Source: a virus
Direction: 5' to 3' (one strand)
DNA length: 64,000 nt
IMG/VR virus record: IMGVR_UViG_3300017751_000011
Coordinates: 1 to 64,000 of that record
The position numbers and the translations under genes were made by a program. The notes beneath the pieces were generated by a model, which was given only the letters and a program-made list of their open reading frames with translations, did not search any database and had not been told where the DNA came from. This document shows positions 27,178 to 63,527 of this stretch, in pieces; positions within the stretch are counted from its first letter, which is position 1; each line of letters begins with the position of its first letter.

Positions 27178-27983
27178 CGTGATTCCTTTTCAAATTTCCT
27201 AAACAGCTGCGCCGCAAATTTACTTTGCTTAGCAATCTTGGCTGCTTGTTCTGGGTTTACAACGTACTCACCTCCAGTTACTTCACCCACTTTGGCTCCA
27301 TCTTGCATTAAGTTTATTGGGTTTGATCCGTGGCTAAATTCACCAGGAGTTTTCATCCCTTTCTTGCCGTAGATCTTGCCTCCGTTAGCCTTTGGTTTGA
27401 ACAAGCCAGCTCCAGCTGCCTGACCACCTATATCGAAGAGTCCTGCCGCAAAGTCGTATCCTAGCTGATTTCTCTGCTGCTTAGACTGAAAAGCCCCCAT
27501 CATACCAGAAGCAGCTTGCTGTCTGGCTAAATCCAAATCAACCCCTATATCACCTCTCTGCTCCCTTCTATTCTGCTCCTCCATTTGACCTACAGTAGAC
27601 ATAGCACTTGTCTTTCTAGTGTACTCGTCAGCCCCGATATTAGCCATATTACTAGCCGCCATTTGCTGTTGGGCTCCAAGACCACCGAGCAAAGCCCTAG
27701 CACCGCCAGCCTTCAAAGCCCCTATAGCTGTACCAGACTGACGTTGAGCCTCTTGTCTTTGCAGGTCCGCAGTAGGGTCTTGCATGGAGTACTGCATGTA
27801 CTTACGCATCGTAGGCCCGATGCCGTACATGCCCTCCCTCTGAGACTGCAGCCTGTTTGCGTCTGCTTCGCCTTCTCGACCAAGTTTACCATATAGCTCT
27901 TCCTGAGCCTTAAGCGTCTTAGCCTGCCCCAAGGCTCCTATTCCCTGTCCTATCGCTCCTAATGCTAGTGATAATGGATTCAT
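27174..27983 (-). CDS. Gly/Gln/Ala-rich putative internal virion protein (269 aa)
   Basis: Low-complexity G/A/Q composition and a C-terminal GGKIYGKKGMKTPGEFSH motif. Confidence 0.65.
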   Translation of the reverse strand: MNPLSLALGAIGQGIGALGQAKTLKAQEELYGKLGREGEADANRLQSQREGMYGIGPTMRKYMQYSMQDPTADLQRQEAQRQSGTAIGALKAGGARALLGGLGAQQQMAASNMANIGADEYTRKTSAMSTVGQMEEQNRREQRGDIGVDLDLARQQAASGMMGAFQSKQQRNQLGYDFAAGLFDIGGQAAGAGLFKPKANGGKIYGKKGMKTPGEFSHGSNPINLMQDGAKVGEVTGGEYVVNPEQAAKIAKQSKFAAQLFRKFEKESR

Positions 27984-27987
27984 GTTA

Positions 27988-27995
27988 CAAATATA
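27988..27995 (-). promoter_or_regulatory. late-type -7 box TATATTTG
   Basis: Exact octamer 4 nt upstream of the ATG at 27983, in the 13-nt spacer after the upstream stop. Confidence 0.5.
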
Positions 27996-27996
27996 G

Positions 27997-30900
27997 TTAT
28001 TGCTGTCCTAGCGAGTGATCTTGATCAGATTGCGCAACATGGGTGTTCACGCAATACAATTCAAACGCATCAGCATTATTGTTAGTTAGTGTTATCTCTG
28101 CCCAGTGTCCACGGACTGGGTCTCCGTTTATAGCAGCCTCAGAGATTGCTACAAGATCCCCGTCAACAATCCCGCTCTGTGTAGGAGCCCCATCTACCTC
28201 GATTGTGTAAGCGTCGACAAACCTAACAAAAGTAACATCAATGTCACCTCCACCTAAGTTGGTGTACGCCCCTCCAGATACAAGCCTTATTACGCTTCCG
28301 TATGGTATAGAATTTCTGTTCACTTTATTAACAAAAGTGATTTGAGATACGAACGAGTTTACCGAAGCCACCCTGCCTACGCCTGTAATGTGCTTCGTGC
28401 CGTTCTCGTCCCTAGTGATAAACGAGTAGTAGCTCCCCTCTTTTTCTATAAACCCTAAAGACTGAGCGTTGCTATTAAGGTCCGTAACTATTGGATCTGC
28501 AACCCAGTTAGGACTATTACCCTCTAGAGACACTGCATTGAACACCTTGGTCATACTAGGGTTGCTATTGCTGGCGATCTTTACAACAGAGTTCCCAAAC
28601 GTCCCGTAGAAAGTATTGTAATCCGACTCATTGTCATGAGAGAAAAACAATTCCGCGTTGTTTGCACTAGCAGGGTCATTGTAGTAAGCCGAATACATAG
28701 TCCCGTTTTGGTCCGCATACATGTCTGGAAAGAACGTATACCTGCTTTGCCACACCCCCGCACTTACATTATACCCCAAAGTGAGTCCGTCGAACGAACC
28801 TGACTCCCTAAGAGTAACGTAGTACTGATTGTCTTCTGGGTCATAACCACTTACAATGCGAGTACCCCCCTGAGCTTCAAACAAGTCAATGTTGGTTTTA
28901 AACAACGAGTCTACCCCGTTCTCAGATATAGGCGACATACCCTCTGATGTAAGCCTTACAAGCTTCTTCCGAGAAGTGTCTACAAAGAAAGCGTTACCAT
29001 CTCGAATAAGGACAGATTCGGGGTTGTCACCACAACCGAAATCCCCAGAGTAGTACGCTGGAGTATTTAGCACTTGAGTACTGAGAGATATAATTCCACT
29101 TGTATTTGGGGAGGTGATTATGTCTTTTCCTATTGGAACCCTAGCCACCCTATTCTCTTGAATAGCAAGAAGGTAGTCATCTCTAAAATTACCGATGTAG
29201 TTGCAAGCTCCATTAGCTGAGTCAAGACTAAAGAAGTTTGCTAAACTGGGGTTGAATGATGATAGTGAAAGGCTTGACACATCTTCTGCGTAAGCGTCAC
29301 TGTACGTTATTCCGTTATACCTTCTTACCTCCTCTGCGTCTTCAAATACAGCGTGAGGTCTCCCTTTATTCCAGTCTGTAAGCGGTCTTTTTTCGCTTGG
29401 ATTAGAGGTCTCTACAGGGAGCGTTCTATACTCCCAGTCCTCTGAGCTTAGGGGGTTCCATGTTGATCCAGTGGCATCGTAAACTGGAGACTTACAAGAA
29501 ATGGGCTTATTGAAAACGTCTCCGTTGTAAAGGTCTATAAAGCTTCCATGAGCGTTTACATTGTCATTGTCTTTCCTCACTCCTGCTAAAGCTCCATGAC
29601 CAATTTCATAGTACGCGACATTCTCATCTATCGTTTTCGGGGTGAATATCTCCACTACGGTCTGCTGAGGCCACTTGTTTGAACTGGATGCTGCTGCCCC
29701 GCTGGTCCGTGGTTGGCCTGTTATGTCAAACCAGTCGAAGCCATTGTACTTACCTATACCTGCGGCGATTTCTGGGGCCTCCAAAATCAAGAACGTCCCC
29801 GTCTTTTCTACTGCGACATCTCCAGCTCCACCGCTAGACCCATCATATCCTACTATCGGGTTTGTTTTAGAGTCGTTTCCAAGAACCTCTACCCCAACGA
29901 CATCGAACTCTATAGGATTGTCAGCTCCACCGCCATCATTTTGAGAAAGAGGGTATACCGTAGAGTCGTCAGTTTCCGCCCTGTGGCTTATCACCCTGAG
30001 CTTATCGCCCTTTGTAAAGCTGTATGACCTAGATGAAGGCTTTTCTTTATTGTATATGTCTAGCGTCTTCAAAGAAACGTACAGCCTCTTTGAGTTGGTG
30101 TCAAGAGCGGTAGTAAACTCACCATCTTTACCATTAGCTCCGTTTCTTTTTCTGGCCCCAAACGCGCCTCCAGCTGTGTATTGAGTAAATTCTCCAACAG
30201 ATGCTCTTCCAGAGTAAACAATCTGATACCTACTTGCCCAAGAAGGAGGGGTAAAATTATCGCTAAATGTTACTCTTACGCTGGCAGCTCCCTTTGGAGA
30301 CGTGCTTCGTTCAGCTGGTGTCGGGACATAAATGCTACCAATTTTGTTTACAAACCCAGACCTATTGAACTCGTCGTAATACACAATACCAAAATTGTGA
30401 GTGCTGCCAGACTTAAACCCAGATACACTCTCCATTGTTACAGCTGAAGCTGACTGATTTGCTACTTCAGATGCACCCCCAGTAATCGAAAAGTCTGATG
30501 CCTCGTCCATCCCCGAGACCAATACGTCTCCAAGATCACCTCCTGTAACCGTTCTATCGTTGGCTACAAAGTTAACCTCATCAAACGACACCCTGGATAT
30601 CCTAGTTTTTATTACAAGCTGAGCTTTTGCCGCGTCTGTGTTTGTAGCCGCAGTAATATCATCTAGCTTATAAAACACTTTAAACTCAGATGTCGAAGAG
30701 GTTGTAGCAACCAAAGTACTACCAGCGTCAGGAGCTAAAGAAAAGGTAGTCTCCGAACTCATGTCATAACGGACAGGAGCCTCAGGAAGCTGTTCTATTA
30801 CGTTTTTTAGTGCATCCCTAACCCCTTGTACATTTGTGTCAGACGGGGTTGTGTAAGATATATTTACGGATATAGGCGGATTAGAGCCATTTGTGTTGGT

Positions 30901-32409
30901 GTCAACCTCCTCAGGAGAAAGGTCAAGAGTGCTTCTACTTGCCGTTCCTGTATGAATAACTTGGGGGCTAGACGTGTTGTCTATCTGGGTTACAGGAAAA
31001 GATACAAGAGAGCCTCCAGTACCTGACTTAGCTACGCTAGTTGCTGTTGGCTGTATTGTAAAAGACAGCCTTATTTTAGTACCACCAGCTACGGGTGTTT
31101 GAGAAGTGGCTGAAGATCCAAACGCATCACCTCCGAGAAGATCAATGTCTACCTCTTGAGTGTTTTGCCCTCCCTGTTTAATTACGCTTGCGGCATCGCC
31201 TGAAGGTATCAAAGAACTACCCTCTGTGTTTTCACTGGAGTAATTTACGCTTAGTTGAATGTCTCCGCTTGTAATTTCAGAGTTAGGCCTACCTTCAAGG
31301 TAACTAGAGTACATTAATCTTCCTCCACTTAATGATTGGCCTACAGCTAAAAGCGGCACATTGTCGTAAAGTTTATTTGTGGTAAAGTCAGAAACTGAGG
31401 GTCCCGTTCTATCGTTGTAAAACTTGTATACTCCTGTGGCGGAATCATACAAGGTGTTTGTGTTTCCAAAAACACTTCTTACAAAATTTACCTTTGGATC
31501 AAACTGGTCAACCACATAAAATGCACCCAAATTTCCTTTTCTAGCAAGCAACCTTACCTTTTCTACGTCGTGTTTGTAAGGATTTATGTTTAGGCTTATC
31601 TCGCATACATTGTCAGATAATGCAGACAAACTAGGGGTGCTGGTTGATTCGGTATGCTCGATATGACCCAATGAAAGCCCCCTTCCTACAGCCAATGCTG
31701 AGTAAGGTGATATAGCCGACTCTTCACCGTCTATATACTTATACTGAGTTGCAAACTGAAAAACACTGTCTAAAAACCCGTTGCTTTTTACGGTTAAGTC
31801 ACTTGCAAAGGAAAAATCAGGGCTTCTCGTTTCTGCGCCTTTTATGACCTCTATAGATCTCTTTTTTTGTAGGCCCACCTCCCCGTCATAGCCCCCAGAA
31901 ATAGCCCTATCTACATTAATTTTTCTTGGGGGGTTAATGTTATCGGTAAAGTACAAAATAGACTCAGTCTGACCGTCTTGCTGAAAAGCGGCATTTACTA
32001 TGTCTGCCTTTACAAAACCACCTGAGTTAAAATCCAAAAAAGCTCCCTTAACAACAACTCTATACTTTCCTGTAGTAAAGGAGGCGCTATCCTCATTTGA
32101 CGCATTGTACTGGTATATAGCGTCTTCGGAGTCTCCAGAATTGTCTGAAACAAACCAATAGACGTACCCCCTCTGGGGGTCAGAAACGCTGCCAATGACA
32201 GTTACCTCATCACCATCCGCTACTCTGTCTGCTCCATTAAGCGGTGTGCCAGCAATCGTGCCCCTGACGTTCTTGATGATGCCAGAAGAGCTACTTCCCC
32301 CTTCTGCTATAGTGACGTTCTGGGCGTCAAGCATTTCCCCAGCTTCGGGGCGCACAAGCCTCTGGTCAGCGTCTGCTTGGAGTCTGTTCGGGATAGTCTT
32401 ATCGATCAT
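27997..32409 (-). CDS. large virion structural protein (1470 aa), tail or nozzle-like (putative)
   Basis: Long ORF rich in Ser/Thr/Gly/Asn, predicted beta-rich. Lies between the head-proximal genes and the internal-protein genes. Confidence 0.7.
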   Translation of the reverse strand: MIDKTIPNRLQADADQRLVRPEAGEMLDAQNVTIAEGGSSSSGIIKNVRGTIAGTPLNGADRVADGDEVTVIGSVSDPQRGYVYWFVSDNSGDSEDAIYQYNASNEDSASFTTGKYRVVVKGAFLDFNSGGFVKADIVNAAFQQDGQTESILYFTDNINPPRKINVDRAISGGYDGEVGLQKKRSIEVIKGAETRSPDFSFASDLTVKSNGFLDSVFQFATQYKYIDGEESAISPYSALAVGRGLSLGHIEHTESTSTPSLSALSDNVCEISLNINPYKHDVEKVRLLARKGNLGAFYVVDQFDPKVNFVRSVFGNTNTLYDSATGVYKFYNDRTGPSVSDFTTNKLYDNVPLLAVGQSLSGGRLMYSSYLEGRPNSEITSGDIQLSVNYSSENTEGSSLIPSGDAASVIKQGGQNTQEVDIDLLGGDAFGSSATSQTPVAGGTKIRLSFTIQPTATSVAKSGTGGSLVSFPVTQIDNTSSPQVIHTGTASRSTLDLSPEEVDTNTNGSNPPISVNISYTTPSDTNVQGVRDALKNVIEQLPEAPVRYDMSSETTFSLAPDAGSTLVATTSSTSEFKVFYKLDDITAATNTDAAKAQLVIKTRISRVSFDEVNFVANDRTVTGGDLGDVLVSGMDEASDFSITGGASEVANQSASAVTMESVSGFKSGSTHNFGIVYYDEFNRSGFVNKIGSIYVPTPAERSTSPKGAASVRVTFSDNFTPPSWASRYQIVYSGRASVGEFTQYTAGGAFGARKRNGANGKDGEFTTALDTNSKRLYVSLKTLDIYNKEKPSSRSYSFTKGDKLRVISHRAETDDSTVYPLSQNDGGGADNPIEFDVVGVEVLGNDSKTNPIVGYDGSSGGAGDVAVEKTGTFLILEAPEIAAGIGKYNGFDWFDITGQPRTSGAAASSSNKWPQQTVVEIFTPKTIDENVAYYEIGHGALAGVRKDNDNVNAHGSFIDLYNGDVFNKPISCKSPVYDATGSTWNPLSSEDWEYRTLPVETSNPSEKRPLTDWNKGRPHAVFEDAEEVRRYNGITYSDAYAEDVSSLSLSSFNPSLANFFSLDSANGACNYIGNFRDDYLLAIQENRVARVPIGKDIITSPNTSGIISLSTQVLNTPAYYSGDFGCGDNPESVLIRDGNAFFVDTSRKKLVRLTSEGMSPISENGVDSLFKTNIDLFEAQGGTRIVSGYDPEDNQYYVTLRESGSFDGLTLGYNVSAGVWQSRYTFFPDMYADQNGTMYSAYYNDPASANNAELFFSHDNESDYNTFYGTFGNSVVKIASNSNPSMTKVFNAVSLEGNSPNWVADPIVTDLNSNAQSLGFIEKEGSYYSFITRDENGTKHITGVGRVASVNSFVSQITFVNKVNRNSIPYGSVIRLVSGGAYTNLGGGDIDVTFVRFVDAYTIEVDGAPTQSGIVDGDLVAISEAAINGDPVRGHWAEITLTNNNADAFELYCVNTHVAQSDQDHSLGQQ

Positions 32410-33989: not shown

Positions 33990-33997
33990 CAAATATA
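33990..33997 (-). promoter_or_regulatory. late-type -7 box TATATTTG
   Basis: Exact octamer 4 nt upstream of the ATG at 33985, immediately after a terminator. Confidence 0.5.
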
Positions 33998-34000: not shown

Positions 34001-34026
34001 AAAGAAAAAGCCGCTAAAAAGCGGCT
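34001..34026 (-). terminator. rho-independent terminator
   Basis: On the minus strand, AGCCGCT-tttt-AGCGGCT (7-bp stem) is followed by TTTTCTTTTT. Confidence 0.8.
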
Positions 34027-34049
34027 TTCTCAGTAGGTTAAAGGTAGTT

Positions 34050-35622: not shown

Positions 35623-37041
35623 TCAAGTCAACAACACGTGTTGGTTAGCAGCACGAGTGATCAAGTTACACTCAGAACGGTAGTGGAACTTAGCCTCGTC
35701 CACGTCGTTCGTAGCGTGACCAAGAACACCGCCACCTTCCATCCAGTGGTCAAGCTCACGGCTGTAGCCGTTAACTTCTTTGAAGTTCATCTCCAAAGCA
35801 GGGGAGTGGTTACCAGACTTGGCATCCGCAACCGTGCGAAGAGGAACCATAGCACCCTTAAACGGCTTGTCATCAAACGCACCGAGCAAAGTAGGATCGC
35901 TCAAGAGCTTCCATCCGTGCTTGTGGAACGTGTAGCTACCTCTAGTAAAGCTCTTAAAGCCAAGCTTCACTGCCATGTCAGCGCTGTTGTTAAACGCACC
36001 GAACTGACCAGGAAGGCCAGCTGTAGTCTGTGTAGCGATACCAGCAGCCAGCATGTCGTCGATAGCGAGTGATGTAGCCGTGTCAACGTACATAGCGTAC
36101 TCCTGAGGAGCGCCCTGCTTGTCAAGCTCGAAAATCATCGTATCGATGTCACCGAATCCAGCACCGTCACCGAAGCTACCAGAGGTCGTGATACCACGCC
36201 TAGAGATAGCTTGGAAGTAACCCTCAGAACCAGTGACCTTGCCTTCGTTGAGGGCAATGCCGTCTGTGCCTCCTTGAGGGTTATCGACCGCCACTGAGGT
36301 TTGACCCAGCAACATCATCATCTCCCTTTGGTTCATGAAGCGCTTACGAGCGTCCATTTCACCCTTCACGTACCAACGGTATTCACCACCGCCAAGGTTA
36401 ATCCATCCGATGTTCGTGGCTTGAGAACCAGTTACGCGGAAAGACTCCTTAGTAATAAAGTATGGGTTGACGCGCTTAATAACCTCTGTCTGATAGAACT
36501 GGTCTGGCTGACCCGTTCCCTGAGCGTAGATGTTACCGATGATAGCCATCTGCTGAATACCAGCGTTAGTTGCCACGTTTTCTCCGTCAAGCCTCTTCAC
36601 GTCAACCTCTTCGTTGGCGTCGTCCATAGTGACCACAACATACCTAATTCCGTTTTCGTCAAGAAGAACGTCGTTAAGTCTGCAAGGGGCTGTAGCCGCA
36701 GTATAATCAGCAACGTGAATGTTTCCGATCTTAGCGTCACCGTCGTTCACAACGATTCCTTCAGAAGCGGTCGTGACAGTCTTGTGCAGACGGCCCTCCT
36801 CCCAGTACTGAACTTCGTCAGAAGTACCGCCAGAACGCTTAGCTCCAGTGAGTTCAAGGAATCCAGTAATACCCTGGTCCCCATATGTGTTAACCAAGAG
36901 ATCCCTGTTGTCAGGCTTGGTAACGTCGATCAAGTCTCCAATGGAGATGTACTTTGAAGGATCCGTTTTAAGGGTAGCCTTCAGGTTACTAGGTGTGGCT
37001 GCTTGACCAGCACCTGTACCATCTATGCTTATAGCACTCAT
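35623..37041 (-). CDS. major capsid protein (putative)
   Basis: A 472-aa ORF directly after the scaffold-like gene. Strongly GC-rich relative to neighbours. Followed by a hairpin. The call is positional only, with no motif support. Confidence 0.6.
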   Translation of the reverse strand: MSAISIDGTGAGQAATPSNLKATLKTDPSKYISIGDLIDVTKPDNRDLLVNTYGDQGITGFLELTGAKRSGGTSDEVQYWEEGRLHKTVTTASEGIVVNDGDAKIGNIHVADYTAATAPCRLNDVLLDENGIRYVVVTMDDANEEVDVKRLDGENVATNAGIQQMAIIGNIYAQGTGQPDQFYQTEVIKRVNPYFITKESFRVTGSQATNIGWINLGGGEYRWYVKGEMDARKRFMNQREMMMLLGQTSVAVDNPQGGTDGIALNEGKVTGSEGYFQAISRRGITTSGSFGDGAGFGDIDTMIFELDKQGAPQEYAMYVDTATSLAIDDMLAAGIATQTTAGLPGQFGAFNNSADMAVKLGFKSFTRGSYTFHKHGWKLLSDPTLLGAFDDKPFKGAMVPLRTVADAKSGNHSPALEMNFKEVNGYSRELDHWMEGGGVLGHATNDVDEAKFHYRSECNLITRAANQHVLLT

Positions 37042-37071
37042 AACTTAATGTTTTTGTTTGTTTTTGTTTGT

Positions 37072-38160: not shown

Positions 38161-38168
38161 CAAATATA
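38161..38168 (-). promoter_or_regulatory. late-type -7 box TATATTTG
   Basis: Exact octamer 15 nt upstream of the scaffold ATG, in the spacer after the upstream stop. Confidence 0.5.
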
Positions 38169-38735: not shown

Positions 38736-38953
38736 TGCACTTGATTCTTTGCAAGCAGAAGTTTAATCTCCTGAAGCTCTTTAAGAAGAGTCTCAATGTT
38801 AGCCTTAAGCTCTCCGTTATCAGCCTCAAGGACTGTAACTCTAGACTTGAGAATTGTAAAATCGTTTTGAAACTTTAACCACATCCCTATTATTGCAGCG
38901 ATTATACTAAGTAGTTCAAATTGAGTTAGCGTATCCATTTTTAGCAATTCCAT
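38732..38953 (-). CDS. single-pass membrane protein with C-terminal coiled coil (73 aa)
   Basis: Hydrophobic LLSIIAAIIGMWL, then a heptad-like LEADNGELKANIETLLKELQEIKLLL. Confidence 0.55.
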   Translation of the reverse strand: MELLKMDTLTQFELLSIIAAIIGMWLKFQNDFTILKSRVTVLEADNGELKANIETLLKELQEIKLLLAKNQVQ

Positions 38954-39239: not shown

Positions 39240-39247
39240 CAAATATA
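39240..39247 (-). promoter_or_regulatory. late-type -7 box TATATTTG
   Basis: Exact octamer 5 nt upstream of the ATG at 39234. Confidence 0.5.
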
Positions 39248-43178: not shown

Positions 43179-43186
43179 CAAATATA
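43179..43186 (-). promoter_or_regulatory. late-type -7 box TATATTTG
   Basis: Exact octamer 17 nt upstream of the fibre ATG at 43161. Confidence 0.5.
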
Positions 43187-50021: not shown

Positions 50022-51319
50022 TAGCTATCTAGTTTTATCTGTAAATCAATCTTTATCTTTTCGCTGAACGCCCCAGGAATACTACCCCTGTAATATTTGA
50101 CAGGAATAGAGTTCCTAGTGTATGAGCTTCCATCTGGAAATTGATTTCCCAAATATACTATAGAATCGTTTAGAGAATATACTCCAGACCCTGCAGTAGT
50201 TGCGGCAGCTTCATCTATTTTAAATTCGTCAGGTATCTCTATGATTAAGTACCTATCTGAGTCATAGACAGATTGAGATGAATCATTTTTAAAGTCAATG
50301 ATCACCTCTTGGACCTCAGAGACAAAGTCTGTCATTACATCGACGTATTGATCTTCGTTGGCGTCAACGAGTAAAACTCCTGTAAGGAGAACAGAATTTT
50401 CGGGGTCAAATACGTTTGCCGCATCACTTAAAAGAGAACTTAGATTGGACGCTTTTGGATCTGCAGAAACACTAGTGAAGCACCTGATTTTCTTCCCTAT
50501 GTAAAAGTCAAAGCTTTTGCTTGACGCCTCGGCCTGATCTGCACCTCCGTCATTCCATACGTAAACGGTCTTTAAAGTCTTTTTTCCTAGCGTCGAGTAG
50601 TTCAAGTTTATACTTGTACTTAACCCCCCTTCATTTACGTTTACAGTGGATGTAGACGGATAGTTTGTCCACCCATTTTCTGGCGGCTGAATAAGAGGGT
50701 TTGCGACTTGAAAAGACTCATCCCCTGAGGGGGACATGTATTGAATGCTCATTACCGAATTTGGATTCATCAACTCCATGTCAGAAGAAGTGATAGTGAC
50801 AGAGTTGAACAGCAATGGGTCTCCTATCTCAAACTTGTATTCGTGATCTTGATACTCTATAAACTCACCTAAAACCTCCTCGCCAAAGGAAGCTGAAGTT
50901 ATTTGAGGGCTAGGCTCCAAGTTTATGGTTAGCATATCCCTTACTATATCCTCTATCTCTGTAAGCTGAGAATACACTTTCCTTGACTCTGCTTCTCCGA
51001 CAGGGTTTGTTACAGTAAGATTCTCAGTCAAGAAACTACTTCCAGAACCAGATATCCCTGGCTCCCCTTTCTCTCCTTTATCTCCTTTAGCCCCCTTCCC
51101 AAAAACATCTATAGACCTAGATACAGGAGCTATAGAAACCGATGTAGACGAGCTAGGAAGGACAGATACAGAAACTGAACTAGAAGTAGCTGTAGACACT
51201 GTTTTAGCAGCCCCAGAAGGGACTGTTACTTCAGCATACTTAGACCCAGAAAGCACCACGACATAGCTCTCCCCGCTAGAGGCGGAGATGCTTATGTTAT
51301 TGTCGTCAGTGACTTTCAT
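50021..51319 (-). CDS. structural protein with a short collagen-like segment (432 aa)
   Basis: GAKGDKGEKGEPGISG Gly-X-Y run. Confidence 0.6.
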   Translation of the reverse strand: MKVTDDNNISISASSGESYVVVLSGSKYAEVTVPSGAAKTVSTATSSSVSVSVLPSSSTSVSIAPVSRSIDVFGKGAKGDKGEKGEPGISGSGSSFLTENLTVTNPVGEAESRKVYSQLTEIEDIVRDMLTINLEPSPQITSASFGEEVLGEFIEYQDHEYKFEIGDPLLFNSVTITSSDMELMNPNSVMSIQYMSPSGDESFQVANPLIQPPENGWTNYPSTSTVNVNEGGLSTSINLNYSTLGKKTLKTVYVWNDGGADQAEASSKSFDFYIGKKIRCFTSVSADPKASNLSSLLSDAANVFDPENSVLLTGVLLVDANEDQYVDVMTDFVSEVQEVIIDFKNDSSQSVYDSDRYLIIEIPDEFKIDEAAATTAGSGVYSLNDSIVYLGNQFPDGSSYTRNSIPVKYYRGSIPGAFSEKIKIDLQIKLDS

Positions 51320-54861: not shown

Positions 54862-54868
54862 CTATCGG

Positions 54869-54876
54869 CAAATATA
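54869..54876 (-). promoter_or_regulatory. late-type -7 box TATATTTG
   Basis: Exact octamer 7 nt upstream of the portal ATG. Confidence 0.5.
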
Positions 54877-54882
54877 GTGAAA

Positions 54883-57000
54883 CTAGCGATGCCACTCTTT
54901 TATCTTAGACTTCCTGAAAAACTTCTTGTCGTTGAAATTCGAGGTCTTTTTTAATTGCTTTGATTTTTGAGCAGCAAGAAGAGCCAACCCAGAACTTATT
55001 GTAAGGTCATACTTTGTTCTGTTGGTTATTTTGTACCCTATCCAGTCCTCTAAAGTCCTGTTAAAATACATGTTCCCGAAGTCAGCTGTTTCTGGCTTTA
55101 CACCTACGTGATTATGAATATATGTTTCTATCGCATGAGCATGAGCCTGAATAACGTCCTGAGAGTTAGAGGGTATTCCTTTTGTTTTCACGTTTGATTT
55201 CGTATTAGCCGAAAGCAAGTGAGCTGGCCTATCCATTAAATATCCATCATATCCTCTTGTCTCAAAATACCGAACTATACCGTATTTGTTGTTTTCTACA
55301 AGTAATGGATATCCGTAGTAGAAAGAAGCCATTAAAACGTCTTCATAGAAAATGCTGGCTAAGTCTGGTCTTGAGGCGTACTCCAGAACAAACATGCTGT
55401 CTGGAAAATCACTGTTCATACTAAACTTGTTATACAAATGAAGGGCTCCTTTAGATCCCCTTCCGTCAACCGTCTCATCCAAGTCATACGAGTCTACACC
55501 CCCAACACCATACTGGTAATTTAAAGGCTTTTTCTTTCCTCTATCTTCAGTATACTTGTTTCTATGGCTGGTCGGTGGTTGCCAAGACAGCTTAAATCTC
55601 CCCCGTGGGTCGGGTGAAAATATAACCTCTTTGTCTTTCACCTTCCACATAAAGTTTCCAGTGACTACTGGGTCAGGGTAAAGGTTGTTATTCCAATCAA
55701 CCTGCTGGTATATTTTTCCAATATTGAATATACTCCCCTCTATGCTGTCTCGAAACGCCTCCTCTTCCGTAAGAGGGAATTGTCTTATGACCTCGTTAAG
55801 TTCAGATGGATCGTGGTTTAAGCTCTGTCTTTCGTTTTTTAAATACTCTAGACTGCCCTGCCCTACCATCTCCCCATCTACCCCCATAACCTGATTTCCA
55901 TCAGACAGGCTATCCAAAACAGGATTGCCATACTCATCAAAAAACCCTTCAAGAGCATAAGAAGCAGGGATAAAAATACGATATAGGCCGCTTCGGGTTC
56001 TTCCGTTCGCGTTTCTTTCTCCTGGGTCTGAGTCCTCCCAAAGGTTTTTATATTCTTCACCTCCTTTATTCATTGGGTTGACGGTGCTGCCAACCATTGC
56101 TTTTCCCACTACCCTTTTACCAACGATAAGACATGTCCTTTCAATTCTCCATGCCTCCTTTATGTCTACTGGCTTCTCCCATTTTCCTGCCTCGTCGAGG
56201 TACAGCATGTGCAGCTTTTCTCCGTCGTAGGCATTATTGGTTGTGTTTTTCCAGTTGATGATAGTGTTGAGAGCGTCCCCCTTTTGTGACGTCTTATTCT
56301 TCTTGGTGATTCGTTTTGATGGTTCCCGAAAAGCGAGTTCCATACGTGGGTTCGTAGTGCCATCCTGAATAGGTTTAAAGAAGAATGGGTAACTCCGAAA
56401 CATCGGAATTACTTTCTTCATGAATATATTCTCCTGAGCATCCTTACCAGTCTTTGACTGGATGCCCAAGAGCTTGTCTTTAACTTGCGTAGCCTCGTCA
56501 ACAAGTACAGAGGCACAGATATTAGTATAGCCAGAACGCCTACACTTAGTATATAGCTGACCGATACAACGGGAATCAGCTTCACACGCAGCCATGTGAA
56601 TAAATATCTCACGCTGGAAGGCAAGGTACGAAGGAAATCCGATATCAATCTTACTCCACTGAAGGAACATATAGTGCCTCCCTGTAATGTACGTAGGCAA
56701 GCCATTGTTGTAAAACCAAACACCGTTACGCCTGCGCTCAAACTCCTTTTCGATATAAGCAGAAAACTTCTTTCGAAATTCGGAAGGCTTTTCGAACCAC
56801 TCATCCATACTTCTAACCCTCGACAACTCCTGGGGCATAGGTATGCGTTTCCACATCTGCATCCCTTTTGGCTTGTCATGGAAGAGTATTTCAGATCGCT
56901 TTGGCTTTTTCGGAAGACCAATGTCAAGGCCGTGGAACTCAAGTACCTCTCCTTTTTTGCCCTCAGGGTCCAGCCAAATAGTGTCATCGGACTTGTCCAT
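54883..57000 (-). CDS. terL: terminase large subunit
   Basis: Walker A-like CRRSGYTN, Walker B MLYLDEAGK and nuclease-region GVGGVDSYD. Length 705 aa, located upstream of the portal. Confidence 0.8.
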   Translation of the reverse strand: MDKSDDTIWLDPEGKKGEVLEFHGLDIGLPKKPKRSEILFHDKPKGMQMWKRIPMPQELSRVRSMDEWFEKPSEFRKKFSAYIEKEFERRRNGVWFYNNGLPTYITGRHYMFLQWSKIDIGFPSYLAFQREIFIHMAACEADSRCIGQLYTKCRRSGYTNICASVLVDEATQVKDKLLGIQSKTGKDAQENIFMKKVIPMFRSYPFFFKPIQDGTTNPRMELAFREPSKRITKKNKTSQKGDALNTIINWKNTTNNAYDGEKLHMLYLDEAGKWEKPVDIKEAWRIERTCLIVGKRVVGKAMVGSTVNPMNKGGEEYKNLWEDSDPGERNANGRTRSGLYRIFIPASYALEGFFDEYGNPVLDSLSDGNQVMGVDGEMVGQGSLEYLKNERQSLNHDPSELNEVIRQFPLTEEEAFRDSIEGSIFNIGKIYQQVDWNNNLYPDPVVTGNFMWKVKDKEVIFSPDPRGRFKLSWQPPTSHRNKYTEDRGKKKPLNYQYGVGGVDSYDLDETVDGRGSKGALHLYNKFSMNSDFPDSMFVLEYASRPDLASIFYEDVLMASFYYGYPLLVENNKYGIVRYFETRGYDGYLMDRPAHLLSANTKSNVKTKGIPSNSQDVIQAHAHAIETYIHNHVGVKPETADFGNMYFNRTLEDWIGYKITNRTKYDLTISSGLALLAAQKSKQLKKTSNFNDKKFFRKSKIKEWHR

Positions 57001-57163
57001 ACCTGTTGCTTCTAAATGAAGGGACCCCAGACTTTTTGTCTAATAGCTCCATGTACTTGCCGCATTCACACTTTACGTCGTGGCGGACAACACCGTCTAT
57101 AACCTTAATGGTTACCCCAGACACTTCAGACTCCTTCCCGCACTCACACTTGTATTTACTCAT
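56984..57163 (-). CDS. zinc-ribbon protein (59 aa, not in ORF track)
   Basis: Hand translation gives MSKYKCECGKESEV...VKCECGKYMELLDKK..., with two CxCG knuckles. Overlaps the terL start by 17 nt. Confidence 0.5.
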   Translation of the reverse strand: MSKYKCECGKESEVSGVTIKVIDGVVRHDVKCECGKYMELLDKKSGVPSFRSNRYGQVR

Positions 57164-57177
57164 TATAAATTTAATTG

Positions 57178-57256: not shown

Positions 57257-58567
57257 TTAATTAACTAAAGTTACACTCCCTTTAAGTCTTATCGACACTT
57301 CCCTTTCCCCCCTAGCGTTTATAATCCAGGAATAAACTCCGTTAGGCGAGTAGTGACTTCCCTCATAAACAGACCCGTCCCACTTTTTAGACGGGTCATC
57401 CGACCTAAATACTATGTCTCCCCATCTACTGAACACAATCATTTCCCACTCTATCCAGTGATTAGGATCTTGTGTCACAGCAAAAAAGGCATCGTTTACA
57501 CCGTCGTTATTGGGTGAAAAAGCATTAGGCACATATATAACTTGCTCTTGTCCTATTCCTGGGGGGTCCTCGTCACAAAGGTCCCCTGTGATACAATCGA
57601 TCCATATTTCTTGGACTACGTATTCGTATATGGTGTCTTTTTGATACACATATGTGGTGTCAAAAACGTATGTGGTGTCGTTTACATACACGTATGTGGT
57701 GTCATATATATACTCTGACTCATACAAAGTATCTGTCAAATACACCTCTATTGTATCGGGAGGCAGCTCTACATACTGAGTCAAAGTATCTACTTGATAC
57801 ACAGTATCCGTAGTGTAGTACCATACGTCAATATACAGGGTGTCAGTTAAATACGTGGTGTCGTTAAAGTAATACTCTATGGTGTCTGGGGGTAGCTCTA
57901 CATAAACTGTATCTACTACATAAATCGGATCTTCCTGTTCGCAGGACACCCACCAGTTTTCAAGCTCCTGGTCAGGATACGAGCCTGTAGAGCCCCACTC
58001 AGTTCCATCCCCGTTGACTCCTGTAGTAGCCCATCCTCCATCGGCAGCATACCATGTATTGGAGTAGTTTATTTGCCAAACTACAATCTCAATGCACTCA
58101 CCTAAGCCGACCCAATAGTCTATAAACTGTGGGGCGCAGCAGCTCTGTCCCCCCGTCAGAAAAGGGTCGTTCTCACAGTCCGTTTCATAGGGGTTGTCTA
58201 ACTGCATTACCACCGTGTCTCCAGAGTACAGCGGCATATCTATATCAAAGTCACTTCCCCAGTTACTGAGCATGGAGTTTAAGCTGACCCCATAAGTCCA
58301 TCCCAAGTGATTGGAATTGGGTGACATATCACAAGGCCCAGGGGGGTCCCAAGCCTCATCAACCCCTGGGACGTGCATCCCAATCATCAGCATGTTTATT
58401 GCCCCTGAAGTAGCCTGATAGCCCTGCATTCCGCAACCTTCGCTATTGACTATCTCTAGAGTCACCTCGTAGGTGTTTAAGTTGACGTCAATAATGTCTA
58501 CATCACATTGGGCAGAAGAAGCGGTACTCAACACAAGTAGACAAATGGCAAATAGTCTTTCTTTCAT
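57257..58567 (-). CDS. secreted protein with T9SS type-B C-terminal sorting domain (gliding-motility-associated CTD)
   Basis: Signal peptide MKERLFAICLLVLSTASSAQ. C-terminus VPNAFSPNNDGVNDAFF...VFSRWGDIVF...KWDGS...SPNGVYSW...KGSVTLVN matches the PNvFTPNGDGiND...NRWG...WdG...G.Y TIGR04131-type pattern. The central region has DT(T/L)Y(V/I) repeats. The track start at 58576 is a TTG; the first ATG is at 58567. Confidence 0.8.
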   Translation of the reverse strand: MKERLFAICLLVLSTASSAQCDVDIIDVNLNTYEVTLEIVNSEGCGMQGYQATSGAINMLMIGMHVPGVDEAWDPPGPCDMSPNSNHLGWTYGVSLNSMLSNWGSDFDIDMPLYSGDTVVMQLDNPYETDCENDPFLTGGQSCCAPQFIDYWVGLGECIEIVVWQINYSNTWYAADGGWATTGVNGDGTEWGSTGSYPDQELENWWVSCEQEDPIYVVDTVYVELPPDTIEYYFNDTTYLTDTLYIDVWYYTTDTVYQVDTLTQYVELPPDTIEVYLTDTLYESEYIYDTTYVYVNDTTYVFDTTYVYQKDTIYEYVVQEIWIDCITGDLCDEDPPGIGQEQVIYVPNAFSPNNDGVNDAFFAVTQDPNHWIEWEMIVFSRWGDIVFRSDDPSKKWDGSVYEGSHYSPNGVYSWIINARGEREVSIRLKGSVTLVN

Positions 58568-58581
58568 TCTATTCAATTATG

Positions 58582-58658
58582 TCGGCGAGGTGGGGATTGA
58601 ACCCACATGTGACCGATTACTCTTTCTACAAGATATAAGCTTGAGGAGATACTCACCG
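58582..58658 (-). pseudogene. degenerate tRNA (tRNA remnant)
   Basis: Intact 7-bp acceptor stem CGGTGAG/CTCGCCG (one G-U) and canonical T arm GTGGG-TTCAATC-CCCAC. No D arm or 5-bp anticodon stem can be drawn in the 45 nt between them. Confidence 0.5.
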
Positions 58659-59822: not shown

Positions 59823-59825
59823 TTA

Positions 59826-61752: not shown

Positions 61753-61775
61753 AAAAGCCCCGTGAGGGGCTTTTT
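61753..61775. terminator. bidirectional rho-independent terminator
   Basis: AAAA-GCCCC-gtga-GGGGC-TTTTT between convergent genes. Confidence 0.75.
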
Positions 61776-61783
61776 CTTTTTAG

Positions 61784-62572: not shown

Positions 62573-63357
62573 GATAAGCCTTTTAATTTTTTGTTCAACG
62601 TAGTCTTAGCTCGGTTTCCCATAACACCCACTCTTTTCTTAGGGGTGACCACTTTAGACTTCTCTCGCTTAGAACGCTTGTTAATACGTGCGGCCTTTCT
62701 ATCTGCTCTCACATCCTTGCGGTCAGCACCCTGAGCTACAGTCTTAGGTCCGCGCTTTACCGCAGACACTGGCTTCGGTGCTGTCTTAATAGTAGGCTTA
62801 AGAGTAGGCTTAGAAGCTGGCGTCTTAGCAGAAACTTTAGTAACGACCTTCTTCTCGACCCTGGAAGGAGCGTTCATTTTCACTACACGCTTATTTGCTG
62901 GTTTCGGGGCTGCCTTTACGCTGGGTCTATTTGTAGGACCCTTGCCGTAAGCGCTATTGATCTTGTTCTGAGCAGCATTGTACTCTGGAGATCCCTTTGT
63001 GGCGGAGTTTCGGGCTTTAATGTATGAATCCAACTTGGGATCTTTTTTCTTAGCATCTGCGTAAGAAGATTTCTTGGCCTTTGGTTTTGCTGCTGGAGTA
63101 GAAGTCTTAGCTTTTGGCTTACCGCTTACCGCGTTTGCCGCTTTCGCTTGAGCTTTTCTAGCAGGAGCCAATGCCCTATCCGCTGCCGATGCAGCTTTCC
63201 CCTGAACTTTCTGAGCAGGAGCCAATGCCCTGTCCGCTGCTGAAGACGCTGACGCCTGTGCTCTTTGACCAGCACTCCTTATGGGCTCTAACGCAGAGTT
63301 AATTGCCCCCCTTACTCTGTCTGCAAAGTCAGGAGATTTCTTTTTGGGATCAGCCAT
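62569..63357 (-). CDS. Lys/Ala/Pro-rich histone H1/AlgP-like basic protein (262 aa)
   Basis: KPKAK, KAAPKPANK and TAPKPVSAVK repeats. Contains an 18-aa tandem duplication SAADRALAPA(Q/R)K(V/A)Q(G/A)KAA. Confidence 0.65.
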   Translation of the reverse strand: MADPKKKSPDFADRVRGAINSALEPIRSAGQRAQASASSAADRALAPAQKVQGKAASAADRALAPARKAQAKAANAVSGKPKAKTSTPAAKPKAKKSSYADAKKKDPKLDSYIKARNSATKGSPEYNAAQNKINSAYGKGPTNRPSVKAAPKPANKRVVKMNAPSRVEKKVVTKVSAKTPASKPTLKPTIKTAPKPVSAVKRGPKTVAQGADRKDVRADRKAARINKRSKREKSKVVTPKKRVGVMGNRAKTTLNKKLKGLS

Positions 63358-63515
63358 TAGTTCTTCTTTCTATCAGCGATGACCATATTTACCAAGCTGT
63401 CGATATATCCGAATACCTGATTGTCCTTGTCCGTTGGAGTAAGGTTTACCACCACCTTGATGAGGGCGAGAACTCCGATTACGAGCTCAGCGAGATTGTC
63501 AAGAATAAAATCCAT
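63357..63515 (-). CDS. small membrane protein (52 aa, not in ORF track)
   Basis: Hand translation gives MDFILDNLAELVIGVLALIKVVVNLTPTDKDNQVFGYIDSLVNMVIADRKKN. TAATG-coupled downstream. Confidence 0.5.
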   Translation of the reverse strand: MDFILDNLAELVIGVLALIKVVVNLTPTDKDNQVFGYIDSLVNMVIADRKKN

Positions 63516-63519
63516 GAGA

Positions 63520-63527
63520 CAAATATA
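63520..63527 (-). promoter_or_regulatory. late-type -7 box TATATTTG
   Basis: Exact octamer 4 nt upstream of the ATG at 63515. Confidence 0.5.

What the first reader, a model, noticed from the sequence alone, without database searches (positions are those of the whole stretch)
27983..63527. Recurrent TATATTTG box in the short spacers upstream of leftward genes, implying leaderless late mRNAs
The exact octamer TATATTTG fits the Bacteroidota -7 consensus TAnnTTTG. It lies on the minus strand in the short spacers upstream of genes starting at 63515, 54861 (portal), 43161 (fibre), 39234, 38145 (scaffold), 33985 and 27983. The distance from the G to the ATG is 4, 7, 17, 5, 15, 4 and 4 nt respectively. 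My manual scan was not exhaustive. It found only two other exact copies in the window: 50150-50157 on the minus strand (intragenic) and 15679-15686 on the plus strand. With the box 4-5 nt from the start codon, transcription should begin at or within a few nt of the ATG. Several late genes would then be translated from leaderless or near-leaderless mRNAs. No convincing -33 TTTG accompanies these boxes, which may mean a phage-encoded factor is required.
Basis: partly seen in the sequence, partly recalled or inferred. Interest (0 to 1): 0.65.

Follow-up and report, generated by a model that had tools for sequence, protein, structure and literature searches.

The report
Leaderless late promoters, flavobacterial phage
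A marine flavobacterial phage and its many uncultured relatives place the host's commonest promoter box (TATATTTG) just four bases before many late-gene start codons, which should give mRNAs with no leader, a layout that is rare in the host phylum; no experiment has tested this yet.

Summary
TATATTTG occurs 9 times in the window (about 1.7 expected). Seven copies lie on the minus strand in short spacers, 4, 7, 17, 5, 15, 4 and 4 nt upstream of late-gene ATGs.

Comparative evidence is strong. In about 2.4 Mb of related viral contigs the octamer is about 15-fold strand-biased towards the late-gene strand. It is present upstream of 133 of 154 orthologues of the seven genes, against 2 of 152 for control genes. 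It is almost absent from early regions.

The box is the commonest -7 variant in mapped Flavobacterium sigma-A promoters, so host RNA polymerase is the simplest reader. A missing -33 element is normal for the main host promoter class, so it does not by itself imply a phage factor.

The spacing to the ATG is bimodal: 4-5 nt in 34 family-spacing combinations (52 families), almost none at 8-13 nt, then 14-30 nt. In the 4-nt class every start codon is ATG and the preceding base is a pyrimidine in 87 of 95. With the published 4-5 nt gap between box and start site, +1 falls on the A of the ATG.

The phage's early promoters are a separate, bipartite class with leaders of about 35 nt. No start site has been mapped. 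Verdict: a real feature, and a new member of a known kind.

The parts
63520..63527 (-). Late -7 box TATATTTG, 4 nt before the ATG at 63515 (52-aa membrane-type protein MDFILDNL...). Predicted leaderless.
   Evidence: Orthologues keep the box at 4 nt in 4 of 6 unique upstream regions.
54869..54876 (-). Late -7 box, 7 nt before the portal ATG at 54861. Predicted leader of 2-3 nt.
   Evidence: portal phrog_6547. The exact box is present in all 80 portal loci and in 59 of 60 unique orthologous upstream regions, with spacings from 5 to 30 nt.
43179..43186 (-). Late -7 box, 17 nt before the ATG at 43161 (879-aa putative tail or fibre protein). Short leader of about 12-13 nt.
   Evidence: Present in 4 of 4 orthologous upstream regions, always at 17 nt.
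39240..39247 (-). Late -7 box, 5 nt before the ATG at 39234 (97-aa very basic protein MKACKSYKKGG...). Predicted leaderless.
   Evidence: Eight of 10 orthologues have the exact box; the other 2 have TATCTTTG at 4 nt.
38161..38168 (-). Late -7 box, 15 nt before the ATG at 38145 (putative scaffold, 357 aa). A/T-rich leader of about 10-11 nt. It probably also serves the downstream major capsid gene, which has no box of its own.
   Evidence: Twelve of 26 orthologues have the exact box and 4 have TACATTTG or TACCTTTG, three of them at the same spacing. None of 15 unique capsid-gene upstream regions has a box.
33990..33997 (-). Late -7 box, 4 nt before the ATG at 33985 (249-aa protein). Predicted leaderless. 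The T-tract of the upstream terminator runs into the box.
   Evidence: Thirty-seven of 39 orthologues have the exact box and 2 have TATCTTTG.
34004..34031 (-). Intrinsic terminator hairpin (12 pairs followed by a T-tract) immediately upstream of the 33990 box, forming a terminator-then-promoter junction.
   Evidence: The same arrangement is seen in relatives and in phages phi38:1 and elemoA.
27988..27995 (-). Late -7 box, 4 nt before the ATG at 27983 (269-aa protein), inside a 13-nt spacer. Predicted leaderless.
   Evidence: Nine of 9 orthologues have the exact box.
25923..25930 (-). Variant box TATCTTTG, 19 nt before the ATG at 25903 of the 3237-aa ORF. A possible additional promoter; not tested in relatives.
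50150..50157 (-). Intragenic copy inside the 432-aa gene (50021-51319), encoding ...SIVYLGN.... It is the only class followed by G. It is conserved with the protein, so it is probably a coding coincidence; an internal promoter 129 nt upstream of the next gene is not excluded.
15679..15686 (+). Plus-strand copy beginning 2 nt after the ribonucleotide reductase stop codon (TAA 15675-15677). It faces a bidirectional terminator (15724-15756) and is not conserved at this junction in relatives. Probably incidental.
2196..2228 (+). Early-class bipartite promoter: TAAATTTGG, a 21-nt spacer, then TATCTTTG, with a 48-nt C+A-rich leader to the ATG at 2277.
4139..4170 (+). Early-class bipartite promoter: TAAATTTGG, a 20-nt spacer, then TATCTTTG, with a 35-nt leader (...aaaacacacacaATG) to the ATG at 4206.
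266..300 (+). Third early-type promoter: a degenerate -33 (AAATTAGG), a 21-nt spacer, then TATCTTTG, with the same leader ending (...atcagaaacacacactcacATG at 352).

Best explanation
The seven minus-strand TATATTTG boxes are late promoters read by host RNA polymerase with the primary Bacteroidota sigma factor. Each is a consensus-optimal -7 element (T-12 A-11 T-8 T-7 T-6 G-5) with an A/T-rich stretch just upstream and no -33 element. This matches the majority sigma-A promoter class of Flavobacterium. Transcription should start 4-5 nt after the G. At 63515, 39234, 33985 and 27983 that start is the A of the ATG, so those mRNAs would be leaderless and would presumably be translated from a 5'-terminal AUG. 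The portal mRNA would have a 2-3 nt leader. The genes at 38145 and 43161 would have A/T-rich leaders of 10-13 nt. Early genes use a different class: a bipartite promoter (TAAATTTGG, 20 nt, TATCTTTG) with leaders of about 35 nt. SHOWN: the motif, its enrichment, its strand, class and position specificity, its conservation, and the spacing statistics. INFERRED: which polymerase reads it, the exact start sites, leaderless translation, and the 'late' timing, which rests only on gene functions.
For: Enrichment in the window: 9 copies against 1.67 expected, with 7 of 9 in the 6.6% of the window that is noncoding, p=1.7e-7.

Relatives: the octamer occurs 172 times on the gene strand and 11 on the other in portal loci, 213 and 14 in capsid-gene loci, but only 3 and 1 in 528 kb of early loci. 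All 80 portal loci keep the exact octamer while the flanks and the spacing vary.

Unbiased orthologue test: 133 of 154 upstream regions have the box, against 2 of 152 for nine control genes that lack it in the window. Where the box is replaced, the substitutes are TATCTTTG, TACATTTG or TACCTTTG, in most cases at the same spacing.

Host data: TATATTTG is the commonest of the -7 variants I counted in the F. psychrophilum and F. johnsoniae start-site tables (103 against 44 and 43; 69 against 45, 45 and 66). There are 4-5 nt between the element and the start site, and the -33 element is barely evident (PMC6847099). The SM1 class (808 start sites) lacks a -33 element (PMC9723704 SI).

Flanks: the stretch 3-8 nt upstream of the box (about -15 to -20 from the start site) is A/T-rich, and no -33 appears at any spacing in 52 non-redundant sites.

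Spacing: 26 families at 4 nt and 8 at 5 nt; only 2 of 79 family-spacing combinations fall at 8-13 nt against 16.9 expected, p=1.3e-6. In the 4-nt class 95 of 95 starts are ATG and the base at -1 is a pyrimidine in 87 of 95. Entropy is highest at the third codon position after that ATG.

Other polymerases and factors: sigma-70-type promoters are not enriched (22 against 23.5). No phage RNA polymerase or sigma factor was found.
Against: No transcript 5' end has been mapped for this phage or any relative. The 4-5 nt gap between box and start site comes from F. johnsoniae, and the host of this clade is unknown. Leaderless mRNAs are rare in the Bacteroidota studied so far (about 4-13%), so efficient leaderless translation in the host is assumed, not shown. 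The near-exclusive use of one -7 variant (about 86% of orthologous sites, against roughly 10-16% of host promoters) is stronger than sigma-A recognition alone requires. That could reflect an additional reader. The explanation does not say what makes these genes late.
Confidence: 0.75

Rival explanations
1. The boxes are read by host core polymerase carrying a phage-encoded late sigma-like protein, as in T4 where gp55 recognises TATAAATA, or they strictly need a phage activator. On this view the octamer is a phage-specific late promoter that only resembles the host -7 box.
For: It is a single 8-bp element with no upstream partner. The two central bases are almost invariant at orthologous sites (133 of 154), although host sigma-A tolerates any non-G base there. 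The box is strictly confined to the late module and absent from early regions. The phage's own early promoters are a clearly different class.
Against: The octamer is identical to the commonest mapped host sigma-A -7 variant. At orthologous sites it is replaced by other host-type boxes at the same spacing. One relative uses it as the -7 box of a bipartite early promoter (L192). Elemo phages use TATCTTTG for their late genes instead. No sigma-like or other transcription-factor domain turned up in about 30 small ORFs with Pfam, PHROGs and PDB sequence searches, though a very divergent factor would be missed.
Confidence: 0.12
2. The octamer acts at the RNA level as a translation-initiation or processing signal placed where a Shine-Dalgarno sequence would sit, not as a promoter.
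For: In about 63% of contexts it lies 3-7 nt upstream of the ATG, which is an SD-like position. Bacteroidota lack SD sequences and use other features upstream of the start codon (PMC6847099).
Against: The same invariant octamer also sits 14-30 nt from the ATG in many families, and the portal orthologues range from 5 to 30 nt. That range does not fit a ribosome-positioning signal. The octamer is not complementary to the anti-SD and is not A-rich like the Kozak-like signals of Flavobacterium. The match to the DNA-level -7 consensus, the A/T-rich stretch upstream and the pyrimidine-purine start-site signature all point to a promoter. The equivalent question was tested and rejected for the -10 motif of Deinococcus (PMC12340547).
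Confidence: 0.03
3. The octamer is mainly a module-boundary or recombination sequence, or another DNA-level site such as a binding site for a packaging or replication protein, which happens to sit between genes.
For: It flanks highly variable small genes (the basic-protein families) and sits at gene-cassette boundaries, as T4-type late promoters do at recombination hot spots (my own knowledge, not tested here).
Against: This does not explain the strict orientation with the downstream gene, the sharp 4-nt spacing peak with 95/95 ATG starts, the empty 8-13 nt zone, or the identity with the host promoter consensus. A recombination role would in any case be secondary to, and compatible with, promoter function.
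Confidence: 0.03

Closest known systems
Bacteroidota primary sigma factor (sigma-ABfr / sigma-A) promoters: -7 element TAnnTTTG, with or without a -33 TTTG. Specifically the -33-less SM1 class of Flavobacterium psychrophilum and the 'probable promoters' of F. johnsoniae (PMC9723704, PMC6847099).
   Same: The phage box has an identical octamer; TATATTTG is the commonest of the host variants I counted. It also shares the A/T-rich 5' extension, the frequent C after the G, and the lack of a -33 element. The phage's early promoters resemble the SM2 class, which has a -33 TTTG, a C+A-rich 3' extension and the highest expression.
   Different: Host promoters use many central dinucleotides and mostly have leaders of 20-35 nt; only about 4-13% are leaderless or nearly so. 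The phage's late class uses essentially one variant, and about half of the sites sit 4-5 nt from the ATG.
[quoted passage not shown] Also known in Actinobacteria and archaea (my own knowledge).
   Same: A single sigma-A-type proximal promoter element lies a fixed few bases upstream of the start codon, so that +1 coincides with the AUG. An upstream element is optional, and the motif is conserved among orthologues.
   Different: The phylum and the sigma specificity differ (TAnnTTTG at -7 rather than TANNNT at -10). Here the pattern is a property of a phage gene class, in a host phylum where it is rare. It has been tested experimentally in Deinococcus but not here.
Thermus phage P23-45: early -10/-35 promoters against -35-independent (extended -10) middle and late promoters. 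The switch is made by gp39, which displaces sigma region 4 (PMC3950348).
   Same: Host polymerase is used throughout, and there are two promoter classes that differ in their dependence on the upstream element: the early class needs it and the late class does not. From memory, Thermus phage middle and late transcripts are often leaderless (Sevostyanova 2007, Berdygulova 2011); I could not open those papers.
   Different: No gp39 or gp76 homologue, or any polymerase-binding protein, was identified here. The promoter consensus is unrelated. The existence of a switch is a hypothesis.
T4 late promoters (TATAAATA, read by gp55 with gp33 and the gp45 clamp).
   Same: An invariant 8-bp single-element promoter without an upstream element, repeated in front of late genes.
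   Different: The T4 motif differs from the host -10 box and needs a phage sigma. Here the motif equals the host optimum, and no gp55-like protein was found.
Late-gene upstream boxes of the cultured distant relatives Cellulophaga phage phi38:1 (Callevirus) and Flavobacterium phage elemoA (Elemovirus).
   Same: Sigma-A-type -7 boxes lie in late-gene spacers, often directly after a terminator T-tract.
   Different: In phi38:1 the spacing is 20-31 nt, so the mRNAs have leaders. ElemoA uses TATCTTTGca, mostly at 18-32 nt and only twice at 4 nt. The dominant 4-nt arrangement is specific to the window's uncultured clade.

Membership tests
Bacteroidota sigma-A promoter (-7 element) | Sequence TAnnTTTG, refined to TAHHTTTG | tested here: met
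   All seven boxes are TATATTTG. The substitutes seen in orthologues are TATCTTTG, TACATTTG and TACCTTTG.
Bacteroidota sigma-A promoter (-7 element) | Lies upstream of, and co-oriented with, genes in intergenic DNA | tested here: met
   Seven of 9 copies lie in spacers. The strand bias is 172:11 and 213:14 in relatives. An ATG-ORF follows within 40 nt in 266 of 293 contexts.
Bacteroidota sigma-A promoter (-7 element) | -33 TTTG about 19-21 nt upstream | tested here: not met
   No TTG or TTTG at any preferred spacing. This element is dispensable in Flavobacterium: the SM1 class of 808 start sites lacks it, and it is 'much less evident' in F. johnsoniae. Its absence therefore does not exclude membership.
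Bacteroidota sigma-A promoter (-7 element) | A/T-rich region around -18 | tested here: met
   The 3-8 nt upstream of the box (about -15 to -20) are A/T-rich, with T at the fourth base upstream in 37 of 52 sites. Compare PMC6847099.
Bacteroidota sigma-A promoter (-7 element) | Primary transcript 5' end 4-5 nt downstream of the G; transcription by sigma-A holoenzyme | not testable with these tools
   This needs dRNA-seq, 5' RACE or in vitro transcription.
Leaderless genes (proximal promoter element adjacent to the ORF) | Fixed short distance that places +1 on the first base of the start codon | tested here: met
   The spacing is 4 nt in 26 families and 5 nt in 8, and the published gap between element and start site is 4-5 nt.
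Leaderless genes (proximal promoter element adjacent to the ORF) | AUG start codon and a pyrimidine(-1)/purine(+1) initiation context | tested here: met
   Ninety-five of 95 starts are ATG, with no GTG or TTG, and the base at -1 is a pyrimidine in 87 of 95.
Leaderless genes (proximal promoter element adjacent to the ORF) | mRNA 5' end at the AUG and translation of that mRNA | not testable with these tools
   This needs 5'-end mapping, toeprinting or a reporter assay.
T4-type late promoter system | Phage-encoded late sigma (gp55-like) and a motif distinct from the host promoter | tested here: not met
   No sigma-like domain was found in the small ORFs. The motif equals the commonest host -7 variant. 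A highly divergent factor cannot be excluded.
P23-45-type promoter-class switch | Two host-polymerase promoter classes that differ in dependence on the upstream element | tested here: met
   Early sites are bipartite, with a 20-nt spacer in 24 of 27. Late sites have the -7 box only.
P23-45-type promoter-class switch | Phage protein that binds the beta-flap and sigma region 4 (gp39-like) | tested here: inconclusive
   No sequence match to any solved structure for four of the five conserved early ORFs of unknown function, and no family match for any of them. Such proteins are small and evolve fast.

The most novel reading that the evidence does not exclude
The two promoter classes form a programmed switch. 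An early phage protein, analogous to P23-45 gp39 or T4 AsiA, would disable -33 recognition by the Bacteroidota sigma factor. That would silence the bipartite early promoters and the strongest (SM2-type) host promoters while sparing the late promoters that have only the -7 box. The leaderless late mRNAs would then be translated preferentially, through 5'-AUG/70S initiation in a phylum that does not use Shine-Dalgarno pairing. This would give the phage both transcriptional and translational priority late in infection. Candidate factors are the clade-conserved early ORFs of unknown function at 6499-6840, 6959-7372, 7369-7929, 9572-9829 and 12407-12988.
Probability: 0.2. Interest if true: 0.75.

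Novelty: new member of a known kind. Interest (0 to 1): 0.5.

Why it matters
Bacteroidota are unusual in both transcription (a divergent primary sigma factor with -33/-7 promoters) and translation (no Shine-Dalgarno use, with the anti-SD sequestered). Almost nothing is known about how their phages time gene expression. This result gives a concrete promoter map that can be transferred to a large, abundant, uncultured clade of marine flavobacterial podophages. It includes explicit predicted start sites and two clearly separable promoter classes. It also predicts that about half of the late transcription units are leaderless, in a phylum where such mRNAs are a small minority. If confirmed, that would be a natural system for studying leaderless initiation in Bacteroidota, a source of compact strong promoter and start cassettes for Flavobacteriia genetics, and a rule that improves start-codon and operon annotation in such phages. 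The underlying elements (the host -7 box, leaderless mRNAs, -35-independent late promoters) are each already known, so this extends known biology and is not a new principle.

Tried and rejected
1. Generic TAnnTTTG enrichment: absent (45 against 43). Only the exact octamer and its position carry signal.

2. A -33 partner for the late boxes: none at any spacing.

3. Sigma-70-type promoters: not enriched (22 against 23.5).

4. A phage sigma factor, transcription factor or RNA polymerase. Pfam and PHROGs scans of about 30 small ORFs and of the giant ORFs, plus PDB sequence searches of four conserved early ORFs and the 3237-aa ORF, found nothing relevant.

5. Known structured RNAs in the spacers: Rfam finds only three tRNAs.

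6. A hairpin enclosing the portal start codon (TTTGCCGT-tagATGt-ACGGCAAA). It forms in many relatives, but there are no compensatory changes. Changes on the 5' side simply break pairs, and the 3' arm is fixed by the Tyr-Gly-Lys codons. I rejected it as a selected structure.

7. The plus-strand copy at 15679 as a conserved promoter: it is not conserved in early-region relatives.

8. Close deposited relatives: none by megablast. The nearest record (MW202828, TerL 47% identical) does not use the box systematically.

9. Literature search for a prior description of this motif or of leaderless late genes in Bacteroidota phages: none found. The primary P23-45 paper (PMC3018760) could not be opened.

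10. I did not use the large protein-homology searches or structure prediction. They could only have addressed the peripheral question of a switch factor.

Full report
WHAT THE WINDOW IS

The window (45.8% G+C) covers most of the genome of a tailed podophage of Flavobacteriia. The minus strand from about 15.7 kb to 64 kb carries the structural, packaging and lysis module:
- large terminase, 54883-57000
- portal, 52390-54861
- major capsid protein, 35623-37041
- a 1470-aa virion protein with a crAss 'muzzle' C-terminal domain
- a 3237-aa ORF
- an M15 endolysin
- a GroES-like protein
- a protein with a CHU_C type IX secretion domain
.

The plus strand from 1 to 15.7 kb carries early and replication genes: a BT4734-type primase/helicase, a PDDEXK nuclease and ribonucleotide reductase. 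There is no close deposited relative. By protein similarity the nearest records are an uncultured freshwater phage (TerL 47% identical), Flavobacterium 'elemo' phages and Cellulophaga, Maribacter and Tenacibaculum phages, at about 30% portal identity. IMG/VR holds a large clade of uncultured relatives. I retrieved 80 portal-centred loci (67-97% identity), 79 new capsid-centred loci (45-80%) and 47 primase-centred loci.

CHECKING THE OBSERVATION

There are nine copies of TATATTTG against 1.67 expected, and no shuffle reached nine. All seven stated distances to the ATG are right. Seven copies lie in the 6.6% of the window that is noncoding (p=1.7e-7). They occupy 7 of the 17 minus-strand spacers longer than 5 nt. 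The degenerate consensus TAnnTTTG is not enriched overall (45 against 43), so the signal lies in this particular octamer at this particular position. None of the seven boxes has a TTG 17-23 nt upstream.

COMPARATIVE EVIDENCE

Upstream of the portal gene the octamer is invariant in all 80 related loci. Meanwhile the adjacent bases diverge and the distance to the ATG ranges from 5 to 30 nt.

Across 975 kb of portal loci the box occurs 172 times on the gene strand and 11 times on the other. Across 1.39 Mb of capsid loci the counts are 213 and 14, and the box persists in relatives with only about 45% capsid identity. In 528 kb of early-region loci the counts are just 3 and 1.

Because those counts rest on exact matches, I also located orthologues by protein similarity alone and then looked upstream. 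The exact box is present in 133 of 154 unique upstream regions of the seven box-associated genes. For nine late genes that lack a box in the window (capsid, TerL and others) it is present in only 2 of 152. Promoter presence or absence is therefore a conserved property of each gene. Where the exact box is missing, it is replaced by TATCTTTG, TACATTTG or TACCTTTG, in most cases at the same spacing.

WHAT THE BOX IS

It matches all six specified positions of the Bacteroidota sigma-A -7 element. In the published start-site tables it is the commonest of the variants I counted:
- F. psychrophilum: 103 occurrences, against 44 for TATCTTTG and 43 for TAAATTTG
- F. johnsoniae: 69 occurrences, against 45, 45 and 66
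.

It often appears there as ...TTTCTTATATTTGCA, the same flank pattern as in the phage. In 52 non-redundant phage sites the 3-8 nt upstream of the box are A/T-rich (T at the fourth base upstream in 37 of 52). The base after the G is C or T in 44 of 52 and almost never G. [quoted passage not shown] In F. psychrophilum the majority sigma-A class SM1 (808 start sites) has no -33 box. Only the SM2 class (177 start sites, the most highly expressed) has one, together with a C+A-rich 3' extension (PMC9723704 SI D5).

The lack of a -33 element is therefore ordinary for the host and does not by itself call for a phage factor. No phage sigma, transcription factor or RNA polymerase was detectable, and sigma-70-type promoters are at background level.

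A SECOND, CONTRASTING PROMOTER CLASS

The early region carries bipartite promoters of the form TAAATTTGG, 20-21 nt, TATCTTTG, at 2196-2228 and 4139-4170. A third at 266-300 has a degenerate -33. Their leaders of 35-51 nt end in ...cagaaacacacac..ATG. In early-region relatives I found 27 unique such sites. The spacer is exactly 20 nt in 24 of them and the -7 box is TATCTTTG in 18. The leader is about 35 nt and often contains a small hairpin. These look like the host's SM2 class.

The phage therefore has two classes that differ in three ways: the -33 element (present or absent), the central -7 dinucleotide (TC or TA) and leader length (about 35 nt, or 0-13 nt).

The choice of variant is lineage-specific rather than mechanistically fixed:
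- one relative has a bipartite early promoter with TATATTTG (L192)
- the cultured elemoA phage uses TATCTTTGca for its late genes
- phi38:1 uses both.

THE LEADERLESS INFERENCE

In F. johnsoniae the -7 element occupies -12 to -5, with 4 or 5 nt between it and the start site. With 4 nt between the G and the ATG, +1 is the A of the ATG.

Across 270 unique box-plus-ORF contexts in 52 gene families, the family-corrected spacing distribution is bimodal. There are 26 families at 4 nt, 8 at 5 nt and 3 at 7 nt. Only 2 of 79 family-spacing combinations fall at 8-13 nt, against 16.9 expected if spacing were uniform (p=1.3e-6). A broad group follows at 14-30 nt. An empty zone that corresponds to leaders of about 4-9 nt is what one would expect if such leaders suit neither 5'-AUG initiation nor leadered initiation. 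That last step is inference.

In the 4-nt class all 95 unique sites start with ATG, never GTG or TTG. The base before the A is a pyrimidine in 87 of 95, which is the usual pyrimidine(-1)/purine(+1) start-site context. The four spacer bases otherwise vary freely. After that ATG, entropy is highest at third codon positions (the samples are small). The other 15 TAnnTTTG variants also peak at 4-5 nt in these phages.

About 48% of contexts have 3-5 nt spacing. For comparison, 5.5% of mRNAs are leaderless in F. psychrophilum, 3.7% have UTRs shorter than 10 nt in B. thetaiotaomicron, and about 13% have leaders of 10 nt or less in F. johnsoniae.

In the window this predicts leaderless mRNAs for the genes starting at 63515, 39234, 33985 and 27983. 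It predicts a 2-3 nt leader for the portal and A/T-rich leaders of 10-13 nt for 38145 and 43161. The capsid gene has no box; it follows the putative scaffold gene after a conserved A/C-rich spacer, so it is probably co-transcribed.

The distant cultured relatives mostly have ordinary leaders (20-31 nt spacing in phi38:1; 18-32 nt in elemoA, with two 4-nt cases). The dominant leaderless geometry is therefore specific to this uncultured clade.

THE TWO OTHER COPIES

The copy at 50150 is intragenic. It encodes ...SIVYLGN..., is conserved with the protein, and belongs to the only class followed by G. It is probably a coding coincidence.

The copy at 15679 begins 2 nt after the ribonucleotide reductase stop codon. 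It points at a bidirectional terminator about 45 nt away and is not conserved at that junction in relatives. It is probably incidental.

COMPARISON WITH KNOWN SYSTEMS

The element itself is a member of the known Bacteroidota sigma-A -7 family. The only unmet feature, the -33 box, is dispensable in Flavobacterium.

Functionally the closest parallels are two. One is the leaderless genes of Deinococcus-Thermus, where the -10 region lies adjacent to the ORF; there the motif was shown experimentally to act as a promoter and not as a ribosome-binding site (PMC12340547). The other is Thermus phage P23-45. Its early promoters are -10/-35, and its middle and late promoters do not depend on -35. They are spared when gp39 displaces sigma region 4 (PMC3950348). 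T4 late promoters are similar in form, with a single invariant octamer, but they differ in needing a phage sigma and a motif unlike the host's.

I found no description of this motif, or of leaderless late genes, for any Bacteroidota phage in the searchable literature.

VERDICT

The promoter assignment is very likely (about 0.9). The leaderless consequence is likely (about 0.75) but unmapped. The idea of a phage factor is neither needed nor excluded. The existence of two sharply different, conserved promoter classes makes a P23-45-like switch a reasonable hypothesis, at about 0.2. This is a new member of known kinds and not a new principle, but it is a clean, testable and widely conserved feature of an abundant marine phage clade.

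Noticed in passing
window 266-300, 2196-2228, 4139-4170 (+); relatives L161-L207: There is a conserved early-promoter cassette: TAAATTTGG, a 20-nt spacer, TATCTTTG, then a leader of about 35 nt. The leader often has a small hairpin (cGGCAAtgTTGCCaa in relatives) and a C+A-rich end (cacacacaATG or caaaatctcaat..ATG). The cassette is repeated several times per genome.
   Followed up: partly
window 38941-39234 (-) and many loci (e.g. L018:2327, L025:2617, L035:621, L072:724): Many box-associated, predicted-leaderless genes encode small, extremely basic proteins that start M(K/R/V)(A)KK..YKKGG. They fall into several unrelated-looking families and vary between relatives. Their function is unknown; they may be DNA-binding or internal virion proteins.
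   Followed up: no
window ~58585-58620 (-): A sequence resembling the T-arm and 3' acceptor end of a tRNA (gtgggttcaatccccacctcgccga) lies just upstream of the CHU_C gene. Neither ARAGORN nor Rfam calls it. In relatives, intact tRNA 3' ends are followed directly by a TATATTTG box (L036:4058, L061:2098). It may be a tRNA remnant.
   Followed up: partly
window 57257-58576 (-): The phage encodes a protein with a C-terminal CHU_C type IX secretion sorting domain. This implies export through the host's T9SS and supports a Bacteroidota host. The real start is probably the ATG at 58563, not the TTG at 58576.
   Followed up: no
window 27997-32409 (-) and 16190-25903 (-): The 1470-aa virion protein carries a crAss-type 'muzzle' C-terminal domain (PF25729). 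The adjacent 3237-aa ORF has no detectable RNA polymerase or other catalytic domain, only a segment like mycobacteriophage L5 gp82. This hints at a structural link between this podophage group and crAss-like tails.
   Followed up: partly
window 54855-54880 (-); 20 unique relatives: A potential hairpin, TTTGCCGT-tagATGt-ACGGCAAA, would enclose the portal start codon and include half of the -7 box, with a folding energy down to -10 kcal/mol. There are no compensatory changes, and the 3' arm is fixed by the Tyr-Gly-Lys codons. It is likely a by-product.
   Followed up: yes
window 37042-37071 (-): The spacer between the putative scaffold gene and the capsid gene is a conserved A/C-rich tract (aaacaaacaaaaacaaacaaaaacattaagttATG; aacaacaacaac in relatives) with no promoter box. 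It is probably an unstructured translation-initiation region for the most abundant virion protein.
   Followed up: partly
window 15724-15756: A G/C-rich hairpin (GAGGGGGGGAG...CTTCCCCCCTTTT) sits at the junction of the convergent early and late modules and probably acts as a bidirectional terminator. The plus-strand TATATTTG at 15679 points into it.
   Followed up: partly
window 57001-57176 (-): Between tRNA-Arg(tct) and the terminase gene there is an unlisted small ORF that starts at 57163 (MSKYKCECGKE...CECGK...). It has two CxC pairs, which suggests a zinc-ribbon protein.
   Followed up: no
L210/L211 (Flavobacterium phage elemoA, NC_055852.1) 20161, 27311, 32872, 41274, 42113, 48140: ElemoA late genes are preceded by TATCTTTGca, usually straight after a terminator T-tract (ttttttatttcgTATCTTTGcaaa). 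Two of these sites (20161, 48140) have the 4-nt leaderless spacing. This is a culturable system in which the prediction could be tested.
   Followed up: partly
window 1-6400 (+) against L161-L207: The leftmost ~6 kb of early ORFs is almost unconserved among relatives (0-4 of 19 loci, apart from 352-630 in 8 of 19). The ORFs at 6499-12988 are conserved in 14-19 of 19 loci. Ribonucleotide reductase is present in only 2 of 19. This is the typical pattern of variable host-takeover genes and accessory metabolic genes.
   Followed up: partly
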